From assembly GCF_009914755.1 (NCBI RefSeq), contig NC_060946.1: a DNA stretch of 64,000 nucleotides; one strand, given 5' to 3'. The position numbers and the translations under genes are program-made. Below, piece by piece: positions 51,459 to 64,000 of the stretch; position 1 is the stretch's first letter; each line of letters opens with the position of its first letter. The DNA comes from the human T2T-CHM13v2.0 reference genome, Homo sapiens. Below the pieces are notes generated by a model that saw only the letters and a program-made list of their open reading frames with translations, did not search any database and was not told where the DNA came from.

Positions 51459-52110
51459 AGAACACTGTCATTCCGACTGAGCATCAGCTCCTCCATGATG
51501 TTTGGCCTGTTTAAATGTTCACAACTGGTTGATGATCAACACCACACACTGCTAATGAGGAGCTCAGCACAGTAAGGAGGGGCCAGGGGATCTTGTTTAC
51601 ATCTTCAAGGCTGCTCATGGGTTCTATGCACAGAGACCAGCCAGAGCTTCACCCAGGGCTCCTACACACCCGACAAACGCAGCCACACCCTCTGGGGCAT
51701 TTTTCTGAGCAACCCCTTTCCTTCTTAACCATGCTGAGTTTTTAAAATGTCTTAATACCCTTATTATTAAACCATTTCCACAGATTTTTCTAGACTTCTT
51801 TTGCTCATTCAGTCCTCTCTGGCTTTCTGCTGTGAGTAACAAGTGATTCACCTTGCCCCTCGTAATCCCTGGGAGTGCCAGCTGCCTGGCCCTGGAAAAC
51901 CGCCCACCATGCCAGGATCACATCTGAGATCGTGGCACAGCCACACTTAACCATGCACAAAACGCTCACCAATGCTGCCTAGAAGGCTCTAGACGTTCAG
52001 GACACAGCAGACTCAGGAAGTCATGTGATGCTTAAATATTCTTCCACTATGTAGGTACCACAATGACAGATAATCATTGTGCCATCAATTTTTTGGCATA
52101 AGCCACTTGC

Positions 52111-52227
52111 CTTGGAGATGAGCTCGTCATGATTGGCCAGGTGTGCTCTGCAGTGGATACAGCTGTACGTTCGGTGACAGTTCGGCAGATACGCTTGGAA
52201 AGTTTTGGACTTTGTCATTTTCACCAT
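52111..52227 (-). CDS. YPEL1: YPEL1 first coding exon ([39 protein letters not shown]); exon begins at 52391
   Basis: Within ORF 52021..52410; first CxxC; donor AAG|GCAAGT; acceptor ttggcag| at 52392. Four exons sum to 360 nt = 119 aa plus stop. Confidence 0.95.
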
Positions 52228-53035
52228 CTCTCCTGGGCACTCCTCACTCAGCTCAGGGCTGGTTCTGGAAGAACCGTGGCTCTGCTGGCCTCTCTGACAA
52301 AAGCAACACTGGAAAATGCACGCAAGAGCCGTCGTTGTCCAGGAGGGCGTGTGGCACTGTCCACACAGCTGGGACGAGAGAAAAACGTAACCTGCCAACC
52401 AATCAGACAAAGTGGTGGGTTACAGAGAGAACATGCGTGTGAAGCAGGTACATATGGGATTCATGTGTTGTGAAGCAACACGCGGGGTGGGGGGGTGGCA
52501 GGACTAGAATTTTTTTTTTTTTTTGAGATGGAGTCTCGCTCTGTTGCCCAGGCTGGAGTGCAGTGGCGCAATCTCAGCTCGCTGCAACCTCCTCCTCCTG
52601 GGTTCAAGCGATTCTCCTACCTCAGCCTCTGAGTAGCTGGGATTACAGGAACACGCCACCAAGCCTGGCCTCCCAAAGTGCTGGGATTACAAGCACCACT
52701 GCGCCTGACCAAGATCCAACTCTTTAGTATCAATTGTAGACAAAATGAACACTGACACCATGCCACTGCTTAACCACTTTACATTTTGTTGGAAGTGAAA
52801 AAATGAACTCCTTTTACATGCAAATAATTTGAGAAAAACATTGATTCAAATTCTTCTTATACCAGGTTTGGCTTTGGAAACATGAAAGGAGAGGCAGAAC
52901 CAAGACGCCCGGTGAGTGGGCCCGGTGGCAGGGCTGGATGCACCCCACCCCGAATCCGGGAATTCACCACGCAGAGCACCAGGACATTGAGGAATGTGAG
53001 TGATGGATCCAGTATTATTTAATCTTTAAGAAATT

Positions 53036-55245: not shown

Positions 55246-56697
55246 GAGTGTATCATTTTTACATTTCTAAGGTCTCATTAACAAAAGAAGGTTAAGTCCA
55301 TGACTGATGCTGCCATCATCAGCAACAGGACGTGCGCCAAGTTTTCCTGGTGGCACCACCCCAGCCTGGCCTGTGACAAGGGGCCTGCAGAGAGTCAGGC
55401 ACACCGGATTTTCTTTCAGGCCAAACAGAAGAGCAAGGGTTTCCCCAAATTCGAGAGCACGGGGCTGGGAAGAAGAGCCAAGCGCCAGCAGTGTCCTCAC
55501 ACCTGCTCCTCCTGAGATGCACCCCCCACCGCCCCCCACCCCATGTGACCTCTGCTCCGGCAGCAGCCTGTCCTGTGCCCTTCCATGGGATGACACCCAG
55601 GACGGCGTCTGCCCCCCACCTGCGCAGGCACGCCTGCATTAGAGGGTCACCTTCTCACATCTGGGACTGAAGATGTGTGTGGGCAGAACGCAGCGTTTGT
55701 AATCGTGTGAACGGAAGACACAAACGGCCGGTGGCGGCCACCCAGGATGGTACTGGGACCCGGTCACCACGGCGCTGCTGTGCCCTTCCTTGGTGCCCCG
55801 GCCTGAGATGCTGCCTAACTTGGACTTGGTGCTTCTTGGTCTTTGCTTGTCCTGATGGCTGTGCCCCGTGTGTGGCCCTGAGCCACACTGCTGCGTGTTC
55901 CGTGTTTTGAACTTGACACCGACGATGCTGTGAGACTTCTCTGCTGACGTGCAGCCAAGTCTGCCTCTGTCCCCATGTGCAGCTGGGCCCCCTTCACCTG
56001 GTGTCCCGTCAGATACACTGCATGCAGCCACTGACGGGGTGTGGATGTGTATCGGCTCCCAGGCTGGCTACTAAATGGTGCTGCTGTCGCTGTCACCTCT
56101 CCTGAGCCGCACAGGCAGGTGTTTCGTTGGAACAATCCCAGGAGCAGATGCCCGTGCACACAGCAGCACCTCCCAAGTGCCGGTGACAAGGTCATCCTGC
56201 CAGCAGCGAACATGAGTCCCTGCTGATCTTTATCCCGCCAACTTGATATGGTCAAATTTTAACACTTCTGCTGCCTGGCAGGTATAAGGCAGCAGCATCT
56301 CATTGTGGCTTTAATTTGCTTCAACCTGACCATACAGGTGGGCACCTTTTATGATTCCTCCTTTTCAAATCTTTGTCACATTTTCTATTAGCTGCTGGTC
56401 CTTTCCTTACTGATTCGTAGGAGTAAGTGATATATTCTGAAAACTAAAGCATACATTAAGCCATATCGGTCGTGGAATGATAAGCATTACTGGAATGTGG
56501 ACATGACTGTGCCTGTGATGTAAGCTTCAGGAAACTATAGTGTAAGGCATGTATGTATAGTATGTGGATAAATGGATATGCCATATACACACACACACAT
56601 ACATATACATATATGTGTGGATTATGTATGTACATGTGCATTAATGGGTTTCAAGTTCTCTAAAAGAAAAAGTGTAACTAGACAAAAAAACTATTAA

Positions 56698-64000
<7,303 letters not shown>

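What the first reader, a model, noticed from the sequence alone, without database searches (positions are those of the whole stretch)
52228..52391. YPEL1 5' leader is open in frame: candidate ACG-initiated, Cys-rich 35-aa N-terminal extension
Seen: the 164 nt of exon upstream of the ATG contain no AUG and no in-frame stop. An in-frame ACG at 52332-52330 sits in ACA-ACG-ACG-G (A at -3, G at +4), exactly 105 nt before the ATG. It would give (M)[38 protein letters not shown]. Established: near-cognate starts in strong Kozak context yield N-extended proteoforms. I recall YPEL paralogues appearing in conserved non-AUG extension lists (unverified). Inference: the N-terminal CIFQCCFC cluster resembles an S-palmitoylation membrane anchor, which could relocalise the long form.
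Basis: partly seen in the sequence, partly recalled or inferred. Interest (0 to 1): 0.72.

Follow-up and report, generated by a model that had tools for sequence, protein, structure and literature searches.

The report
Known ACG-started YPEL1 N-terminal extension
The open, cysteine-rich stretch in front of the YPEL1 start codon is a real, deeply conserved extension that begins at an ACG codon, but it was published in 2011 and is already annotated in GENCODE, so only its function remains open.

Summary
In detail: 164 nt of exon 2 leader hold no ATG and no in-frame stop. ACG 52332-52330 (A at -3, G at +4) lies 105 nt before the ATG and gives a 35-codon extension.

On its own this is weak. 14% of shuffles are open in frame, and all three frames are open for about 135 nt. 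Comparison makes it strong:
- Human YPEL2 and YPEL4 keep the same ACG-Ala start, a shared CxxC core and in-frame stops upstream.
- 102 gene models from shark to mammals keep the peptide. None has Met at the start position, and the frame varies upstream of the ACG.

It is already known. Ivanov et al. 2011 list YPEL1, YPEL2 and YPEL4 as conserved non-AUG extensions. GENCODE v35 carries ENST00000672036.1 with a 35-codon extension.

Translation of the human YPEL1 form is not shown: there is no Ribo-seq coverage, and PhyloCSF over 50 codons is negative. The palmitoylation idea is untested. Human Cys10 is not conserved, while Cys5, Cys9 and Cys12 are.

The parts
52330..52332 (-). ACG, the proposed non-AUG start codon (A at -3 = 52335, G at +4 = 52329)
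   Evidence: The same ACG followed by an Ala codon, with A at -3, is found in human YPEL2 (L002 1402) and YPEL4 (L004 1746). The start position reads T in 51 of 52 YPEL1-type, 48 of 48 YPEL2-type and 2 of 2 YPEL4-type gene models, and never M.
52228..52332 (-). 35-codon N-terminal extension (ACG plus 34 codons), in frame with the annotated ATG
   Evidence: The length equals the 35 codons listed for ENST00000672036.1 in Supplementary Data 3 of PMC9789052. Invariant positions in alignment A1 are T1, A2, C9, C12, P26 and M36.
52333..52335 (-). Upstream tandem ACG (A at -3, A at +4); not the conserved start
   Evidence: At this position YPEL2 has ACC and YPEL4 has AAC.
52225..52227 (-). Annotated ATG of YPEL1 (RefSeq CDS start), context gagATGg
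   Evidence: and the hub annotation.
52111..52391 (-). YPEL1 exon 2: 164 nt of leader plus the first 39 codons. The acceptor ttggcag|GTTACG is shared by all listed transcripts.
   Evidence: and the hub annotation.
52349..52366 (-). Conserved nucleotide element GUGUGG-ACAGUG-CCACAC (possible hairpin), ending 16 nt before the ACG
   Evidence: YPEL2 has the same stem with a different loop, ending 17 nt before its ACG. Other vertebrates' gene models read the element in different frames. Fold z-scores are about 0, so there is no thermodynamic or covariation support.
52248..52250 (-). TGA that ends the 60-codon upstream ORF opened by the second exon 1 AUG (a different frame from the extension)
   Evidence: The uORF runs from mRNA +142 to +324 and covers the ACG at +240. 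The main ATG is at +345. The exon 1 donor is inferred.
55655..55657 (-). In-frame TGA in the alternative first exon (55651-56730), 171 nt before the ATG in the spliced RNA
   Evidence: No in-frame ATG lies between this stop and the annotated ATG.

Best explanation
Exon 2 of YPEL1 encodes a 35-codon N-terminal extension. It is translated when a scanning 43S complex starts at the ACG at 52332-52330 (A at -3, G at +4) instead of going on to the AUG 105 nt downstream. No AUG lies between the two, so most ribosomes leak past. The gene should therefore give a minor long form (154 aa) and a major short form (119 aa) with the same Yippee domain.

The extension is ancestral to the vertebrate YPEL1-4 group. 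Its conserved core is (M)-A-[LF]-x-x-h-h-[QR]-C-x-x-C, followed by a variable Ser/Ala/Pro-rich linker with an invariant Pro.

Shown here: the sequence features, the conservation of start codon, frame and peptide, and the prior publication and annotation.

Inferred: that the human YPEL1 long form is actually made, and what the Cys-rich hydrophobic tip does. My ranking for the tip is S-acylation or membrane binding about 0.3, a metal-binding Cys module about 0.2, otherwise unknown.
For: 1. Sequence features are as described.

2. Human paralogues found in the same genome:
- YPEL2 has ACG-GCC 33 codons before its ATG, with an in-frame TGA 22 codons further up.
- YPEL4 has ACG-GCT 35 codons before its ATG, with a TGA two codons further up.
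- All three have A at -3 and G at +4.
- In alignment A1, T1, A2, C9, C12, P26 and M36 are invariant.

3. Codon pattern over the first 13 codons between paralogues:
- 3-4 codons differ synonymously, for example Ala2 GCT/GCC and Cys9 and Cys12 TGT/TGC.
- Differences are 7-8 at third positions against 1-4 at second positions.
- The 39 nt upstream show even differences: 8/8/8, 9/11/9 and 7/10/7.

4. A profile of the extension found 115 predicted proteins at E<=1 among the 8000 candidates scored. Of these, 102 carry the full motif. They include named models from sharks, sturgeon, teleosts, amphibians, reptiles, birds, marsupials and placentals. The start residue is T in 101 of 102 and never M.

5. 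Upstream of the start, the same nucleotide element is read in different frames. For YPEL1 the counts are 40 VWxVPH-type and 8 LCGxCH-type. For YPEL2 they are 20, 18 and 8 in three frames. The human YPEL1/YPEL2 DNA alignment has a 1-nt indel there. So frame constraint begins at the ACG.

6. In NM_013313.5 the frame is closed by a TAA at mRNA +66-68. In the alternative transcript it is closed by a TGA. Neither has an in-frame AUG after the stop.

7. YPEL3 keeps ACG-GCT-CTG, C9 and a WAAP motif, and has an in-frame AUG at codon 8 of the homologous region. That AUG lies 38 codons before the main ATG, which matches the 38-aa longer YPEL3 isoform described in PMC10804680 (passages).

8. Literature:
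- PMC3105428 section 12 lists YPEL1, YPEL2 and YPEL4 among 10 cases conserved in all vertebrates.
- PMC9789052 puts YPEL1 among 24 genes already annotated with a non-AUG start in GENCODE v35. Its Supplementary Data 3 gives 35 codons for YPEL1 and 33 for YPEL2.

9. In the YPEL2 Ribo-seq source data there are 16 reads at ACG+4. This is the same offset as the 89-read peak at AUG+4 (hand reading).
Against: - There is no direct evidence that the human YPEL1 long form is made. PMC9789052 reports no Ribo-seq coverage of the whole YPEL1 mRNA.
- Its PhyloCSF score over the 50 upstream codons in 120 mammals is -756.58, against +521.84 for YPEL2. The authors blame the 15 non-coding codons included in the 50.
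- Mammalian YPEL1 extensions do vary much more after residue 13 than those of fish and amphibians. Human differs from the majority at positions 3, 10, 14, 15, 19 and 20 and has lost Cys19.
- The RefSeq-selected transcript has, in its inferred exon 1, a strong-context AUG (ggccggAUGg) at +142. Its 60-codon ORF runs over the ACG in another frame, so few ribosomes may scan to the ACG.
- The orthologue sample is biased. It holds only gene models that read the leader in frame and match the profile, so leaders with frameshifts or stops could not appear.
- Reads over the YPEL2 extension split about 47/52/45 among the three frames, so there is no periodicity (hand count).
- The human open frame alone is within chance at 14%.
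Confidence: 0.8

Rival explanations
1. The leader is conserved as RNA, for example as a regulatory element or protein-binding site, and is not translated. The open frame is a by-product.
For: A nucleotide-conserved element that is clearly non-coding does lie just upstream (GUGUGG-N6-CCACAC). There is no Ribo-seq coverage for YPEL1 and PhyloCSF over 50 codons is negative. There is no triplet periodicity over the YPEL2 extension.
Against: The frame and length class are kept from the ACG to the AUG in three human paralogues, while the frame is free upstream. Conserved Ala and Cys codons show synonymous changes. Stops are placed just upstream in YPEL2 and YPEL4. YPEL3 uses the homologous region with an AUG. 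The leader does not fold better than shuffles, z = -0.41, and there is no Rfam match.
Confidence: 0.08
2. An extension is made, but it starts at another near-cognate codon: the first ACG of the tandem (52335-52333) or the upstream in-frame CUG (52368) or ACG (52350).
For: The frame is open to the 5' end of exon 2. In-frame CTG 52368, ACG 52350 and ACG 52335 (A at -3) exist.
Against: Only the second ACG is ACG in all three paralogues. YPEL2 has ACC and YPEL4 has AAC at the first. YPEL4 has a stop two codons before its ACG. The frame upstream of the ACG is not conserved among species. CTG 52368 and ACG 52350 have C at -3. GENCODE gives 35 codons.
Confidence: 0.07
3. The open frame is a chance feature of a stop-poor leader, with no conserved extension.
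For: 14% of shuffles are open in frame. The other two frames are open for 45-47 codons.
Against: All the comparative evidence, and the published analyses.
Confidence: 0.02

Closest known systems
The YPEL1 non-AUG extension itself: Ivanov et al. 2011 (PMC3105428) and GENCODE v35 transcript ENST00000672036.1 as listed in Fedorova et al. 2022 (PMC9789052)
   Same: Same gene and the same 35-codon length, which fixes the start at this ACG.
   Different: Nothing differs in substance. I could not read Table 1 or Supplementary Dataset 1 of the 2011 paper (not held as text, or PDF/.doc). The identity of their predicted codon is therefore inferred from the GENCODE length. RefSeq, per the hub annotation, still starts the CDS at the AUG.
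YPEL2 and YPEL4 ACG-initiated extensions (same 2011 list)
   Same: ACG-Ala start with A at -3 and G at +4, a CxxC at residues 9 and 12, an invariant Pro, and 33 and 35 codons.
   Different: YPEL2 is far more constrained: 18 of its first 20 positions are at least 44 of 48 identical, and its PhyloCSF is positive. The fourth Cys sits at 16 in YPEL2, at 16 and 19 in YPEL4, at 19 in most YPEL1, and is absent in human YPEL1.
YPEL3 long isoform (157 aa, 38 extra residues; PMC10804680, passages)
   Same: The homologous region upstream of the main ATG keeps ACG-GCT-CTG, Cys9 and a WAAP motif.
   Different: It starts at an AUG that lies at codon 8 of the homologous region. The Cys-rich core is lost (C12 is Q) and the ACG has C at -3.
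N-terminal S-acylated Cys clusters of peripheral membrane proteins such as GAP-43 and PSD-95 (recalled, no call)
   Same: Several Cys within the first 12 residues, in a hydrophobic setting.
   Different: No acylation or membrane data exist for any YPEL. There is no Gly2 for myristoylation. YPEL proteins are reported at the centrosome, nucleus and spindle (PMC8342551, passage). That paper's YPEL4 co-immunoprecipitations used tagged lentiviral YPEL4 constructs; their start site is not given in the passages I read.

Membership tests
[quoted passage not shown] 2011) | Near-cognate codon in good context, in frame with the annotated AUG, with no stop between them | tested here: met
   ACG 52332-52330, A at -3 and G at +4, 35 codons, no stop.
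[quoted passage not shown] 2011) | Start codon and extension conserved in relatives, with no AUG at that position | tested here: met
   ACG in human YPEL1, YPEL2 and YPEL4. The start residue is T in 101 of 102 motif-bearing gene models and M in none. Caveat: orthologues were seen only as protein, so ACG itself cannot be told from ACN.
[quoted passage not shown] 2011) | Coding-type conservation downstream of the start that is lost upstream | tested here: met
   Synonymous changes and a third-position excess in the first 13 codons, against even differences upstream. The frame varies upstream. A 1-nt indel lies upstream in the YPEL1/YPEL2 alignment.
[quoted passage not shown] 2011) | In-frame stop upstream that rules out an upstream AUG start | tested here: met
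   TAA at mRNA +66-68 of NM_013313.5 (exon 1 donor inferred) and TGA in the alternative first exon, with no in-frame AUG after either. TGA 2 codons upstream in YPEL4 and 22 codons upstream in YPEL2.
[quoted passage not shown] 2011) | Direct evidence that the extension is translated | not testable with these tools
   The published aggregate Ribo-seq has no coverage of YPEL1. YPEL2 shows a 16-read peak at ACG+4 but no periodicity.
S-palmitoylated N-terminal membrane anchor | Cys residues close to the N terminus in a hydrophobic or basic context | tested here: met
   Cys5, Cys9 and Cys12 lie among A, L, I and F. Cys9 and Cys12 are invariant across paralogues. Cys10 is present in only 1 of the 52 YPEL1-type database sequences.
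S-palmitoylated N-terminal membrane anchor | Thioester-linked acyl groups and Cys-dependent membrane localisation | not testable with these tools
   No paper on this was found. It needs acyl-biotin exchange or acyl-RAC and imaging.
Yippee/Mis18 domain protein (PF03226) | Match to the Pfam model above the curated cut-off | tested here: met
   Horse extended YPEL1 (P0007, 154 aa) scores 42.5 bits against a cut-off of 26.6 over residues 56-146. The extension itself matches no family. The only solved relative is YPEL5, matching residues 54-154.

The most novel reading that the evidence does not exclude
The ACG-started tip is an ancestral functional module of all four vertebrate YPEL1-4 genes. It is a hydrophobic segment whose Cys fall at positions 5, 9, 12, 16 and 19. 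It is either S-acylated or binds metal, and so gives the rare long proteoform a different location or partner from the short one. Its use would be tuned by a conserved element 16-17 nt upstream of the ACG and, in human YPEL1, by exon 1 upstream ORFs. None of this functional layer is in print as far as my searches show.
Probability: 0.25. Interest if true: 0.5.

Novelty: already known. Interest (0 to 1): 0.2.

Why it matters
YPEL1-4 are among the most conserved small proteins of vertebrates, and no common molecular function has been shown for them (PMC8342551, passage). Of the functional papers I read, the YPEL2 study embedded the first ATG of every construct in a consensus Kozak site (PMC10804680, passage), so it could not have expressed the long form.

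As a discovery the extension adds nothing to Ivanov et al. 2011 or to GENCODE. What this check adds:
- an independent confirmation from the human paralogues and 102 gene models
- the point that RefSeq still omits the extension
- the homologous relic in YPEL3
- the caveats for human YPEL1: loss of Cys19, a non-conserved Cys10, and the exon 1 upstream ORFs

Tried and rejected
- **Structure prediction, first job.** AlphaFold2 on the horse extended YPEL1 (P0007) with a 51-row alignment (A3) gave mean pLDDT 38 and pTM 0.25. Even the Yippee domain was unmodelled, so nothing can be read from it.
- **Structure prediction, second job.** A deeper 115-row alignment (A6) was built from the representative search. 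No fold search was run.
- **RNA structure.** The whole leader folds no better than shuffles (z = -0.41). The three paralogue regions just upstream of the ACG give z = -0.01, -0.03 and -0.43. There is no Rfam match in 52100-52500 at E<=1.
- **Ivanov Table 1 and Supplementary Dataset 1.** Table 1's rows are not in the held text, and the supplements are PDF or .doc and cannot be read here. Their predicted codon, Ka/Ks and rank for YPEL1 could not be checked.
- **dN/dS across vertebrates.** This could not be computed because no vertebrate DNA other than this genome is at hand. Protein-level gene models were used instead, with the selection bias stated.
- **Helix idea.** The Cys positions 5/9/12/16/19 could line one face of a helix. 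I do not rely on this, because YPEL2 has Pro11 and Pro14 in 48 of 48 sequences.
- **Literature for YPEL palmitoylation.** The search 'ypel' plus 'palmitoyl' found 46 papers (15 listed), none on the subject by title or abstract. The search 'ypel' plus 's-acylat' found 1 unrelated paper.

Full report
**Observation.** Read on the minus strand, exon 2 of YPEL1 (52391-52111) begins with 164 nt of leader. This leader has no ATG and no stop in the frame of the annotated ATG at 52227-52225. An ACG lies at 52332-52330 in the context acaacgACGg, with A at -3 and G at +4, 105 nt before the ATG. Reading from it gives (M/T)[34 protein letters not shown] and then MVKM, which is 35 codons.

**Is it more than chance?** Not from the human sequence alone.
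- In 20,000 shuffles of the leader, 14.0% were open in frame, 10.7% had no ATG and 1.5% had both.
- The other two frames are open for 47 and 45 codons, because the leader's only stops are three TGA near its 3' end.
- 'No AUG' holds only for the exon 2 part. I fetched the region of the annotated transcription start outside the window. The one strong donor there, GCGGCC|GTGAGT, lies 180 nt downstream of the start. Gene models of other mammals that begin MGAAG... and splice after the same 13 codons agree with it (P0005, P0026, P0070, P0103).
- With that exon 1, the mRNA has an AUG at +42 in the main frame (8 codons, then TAA). It also has an AUG at +142 in strong context (ggccggAUGg). The second AUG opens a 60-codon ORF in another frame that runs across the ACG (+240) and stops at +324, 21 nt before the main AUG at +345.

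**Paralogues in the same genome.** A search of the window's own genome found the matching exons of YPEL2 (chr17) and YPEL4 (chr11).
- YPEL2 has ACC-ACG-GCC 33 codons before its ATG, with an in-frame TGA 22 codons further up.
- YPEL4 has AAC-ACG-GCT 35 codons before its ATG, with a TGA only two codons further up.
- All three genes therefore share A at -3, ACG, and G at +4 as the first base of an Ala codon.
- The three peptides align with T1, A2, C9, C12, P26 and M36 invariant, also when seven mammalian YPEL1 sequences are added.
- Over the first 13 codons the paralogues differ synonymously at 3-4 codons (Ala2 GCT/GCC; Cys9 and Cys12 TGT/TGC). Differences number 7-8 at third positions against 1-4 at second positions. 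The 39 nt upstream differ evenly: 8/8/8, 9/11/9 and 7/10/7.
- The DNA alignment of YPEL1 and YPEL2 needs a 1-nt gap between a shared upstream element and the ACG, so the frame is not kept upstream.

**Orthologues.** The protein database holds automatic gene models that happen to read the leader in frame.
- The human extension alone found 7 mammalian models.
- A profile of ten extensions (A2) found 115 proteins at E<=1 among the 8000 candidates scored.
- Of the 115, 13 lack the full motif (truncated, differently spliced or degenerate). The other 102 split into 52 YPEL1-type, 48 YPEL2-type and 2 YPEL4-type.
- The start position is T in 51 of 52, 48 of 48 and 2 of 2. It is A once and never M.
- Three models begin exactly at that T: horse YPEL1 at 154 aa, cattle YPEL2 at 152 aa, and a finch YPEL2.
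- YPEL1-type extensions from teleosts, sturgeon and amphibians are nearly identical over about 25 residues (TAFACIFQCFFCQ[QR]VQQSCNSSSASPE). YPEL2-type extensions are nearly invariant from sharks to mammals.
- Upstream of the T the same nucleotide element is read in different frames. For YPEL1 there are 40 VWxVPH-type and 8 LCGxCH-type models. For YPEL2 there are 20, 18 and 8 in three frames. This places the 5' edge of frame constraint at the ACG.
- The sample is biased. A leader with a frameshift or stop would not appear as such a model, so these counts cannot give the fraction of species that keep the frame.
- The exhaustive representative search added further paralogue forms with the same T-A-L-T-C-V-L-R-C-F-P-C start. 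It also turned up forms that begin directly at MVKTFQAYL with no recognisable extension; that library carries no organism names.

**YPEL3.** The homologous exon on chr16 reads, upstream of its ATG, CCC-ACG-GCT-CTG (T-A-L). Cys sits at position 9, an in-frame ATG at codon 8, and a PWAAP motif matches SWAAP of YPEL2. That ATG lies 38 codons before the main ATG. This matches the YPEL3 isoform with 38 extra residues described in PMC10804680 (passages). I read this as the same ancestral extension, which in YPEL3 lost its Cys core and gained an AUG. That is an inference from the human sequence only.

**Prior knowledge.** The finding is already in print.
- Ivanov et al. [quoted passage not shown]
- Table 1's rows are not in the held text, and the supplements are PDF or .doc and cannot be read here.
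- Fedorova et al. 2022 (PMC9789052; passages and supplements) count YPEL1 among 24 genes whose non-AUG proteoform was already annotated in GENCODE v35.
- Their Supplementary Data 3 lists ENST00000672036.1 YPEL1 with a real extension of 35 codons and a PhyloCSF of -756.58 over 50 upstream codons. It lists ENST00000672916.1 YPEL2 with 33 codons and +521.84.
- RefSeq, as given by the hub, starts the CDS at the AUG.

**Evidence on translation.** The 2022 paper reports no Ribo-seq coverage of the whole YPEL1 mRNA. For YPEL2 I read the source data of its Supplementary Fig. 8.
- The ACG is at table positions 236-238 and the AUG at 335-337.
- There are 16 reads at ACG+4 and 89 at AUG+4, the same offset.
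- Reads over the 99-nt extension split roughly 47/52/45 among the frames by my hand count, so periodicity is not visible at this depth.

**Function.** The extension matches no Pfam family. The Yippee domain covers residues 56-146 of the extended horse protein. The only solved relative is YPEL5, which matches residues 54-154.

The conserved Cys are 5, 9, 12 and 19 in YPEL1; 5, 9, 12 and 16 in YPEL2; and 9, 12, 16 and 19 in YPEL4. Human YPEL1 has His at 19, and its Cys10 is present in only 1 of the 52 YPEL1-type database sequences.

The hydrophobic setting fits an S-acylated tip. Four Cys in 19 residues could also bind metal. I found no paper on either idea. Two structure jobs gave nothing: one had pLDDT 38 and one was not accepted.

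**Verdict.** The finding is a rediscovery of a published and annotated feature. What remains open is whether the human YPEL1 long form is made in useful amounts and what the Cys-rich tip does. Doubts about the first come from the exon 1 upstream ORFs, relaxed mammalian conservation and the absence of footprints.

Noticed in passing
window 52349-52366 (- strand); L002 about 1367-1384: GUGUGG-N6-CCACAC is shared by YPEL1 and YPEL2, with the same 6-bp stem and different loops (ACAGUG and AGCCUG). It ends 16-17 nt before the ACG. Other vertebrates' gene models read it in two or three frames, so it is conserved as nucleotides and not as protein. It might help position the scanning complex on the ACG. 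However, fold z-scores are about 0 and the stem never varies, so there is no structural evidence. YPEL4 has a different G/C hairpin ending 22 nt upstream of its ACG.
   Followed up: partly
L005 (G000:C22:22147001-22150000), minus strand, mRNA +42 and +142 from the annotated start: Exon 1 of NM_013313.5 (donor inferred) has two upstream AUGs. The first opens an 8-codon ORF. The second, in strong context, opens a 60-codon ORF that overlaps the ACG out of frame and ends at window 52250-52248, 21 nt before the main AUG. The layout recalls delayed-reinitiation leaders. In rhino and bear gene models (P0005, P0026) the MGAAG-type AUG reads in frame through the extension motif. A ground-squirrel model (P0070) joins it to the extension's C-terminal part.
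   Followed up: partly
L007 (G000:C16:30376392-30379508), minus strand, 1752-1606: YPEL3 keeps a relic of the ACG extension (ACG-GCT-CTG, Cys9, WAAP motif), with an in-frame AUG at codon 8 that lies 38 codons before the main ATG. This matches the 38-residue longer YPEL3 isoform, so all four YPEL1-4 genes appear to share the ancestral extension. YPEL3 is not among the genes the 2011 paper names in section 12.
   Followed up: partly
L003 / L009 (G000:C9: about 1152200-1155400): A processed YPEL1-like pseudogene. Spliced YPEL1 cDNA positions 90-568 align colinearly across three exon junctions at 70% identity, starting inside the extension. There are TGA and TAG stops in the Yippee frame, and 3'UTR pieces lie nearby.
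   Followed up: partly
YPEL2 transcript ENST00000672916.1, table positions 192-196 in source data of PMC9789052 Supplementary Fig. 8 (L002 about 1358-1362): The largest footprint peak in the part of the YPEL2 leader I read (table positions 37-334) is 34 reads at +4 of an AUC codon (gacAUCa), 44 nt upstream of the ACG and in another frame. This suggests a near-cognate upstream ORF start.
   Followed up: no
extension residues 5, 9, 12, 16, 19 (window 52318-52320, 52306-52308 and 52297-52299 for human Cys5, Cys9 and Cys12): Across the paralogues the conserved Cys fall at positions 5, 9, 12, 16 and 19, a 4-3-4-3 spacing that would line one face of a helix. Each paralogue uses four of the five. Pro11 and Pro14 in YPEL2 argue against a simple helix.
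   Followed up: no
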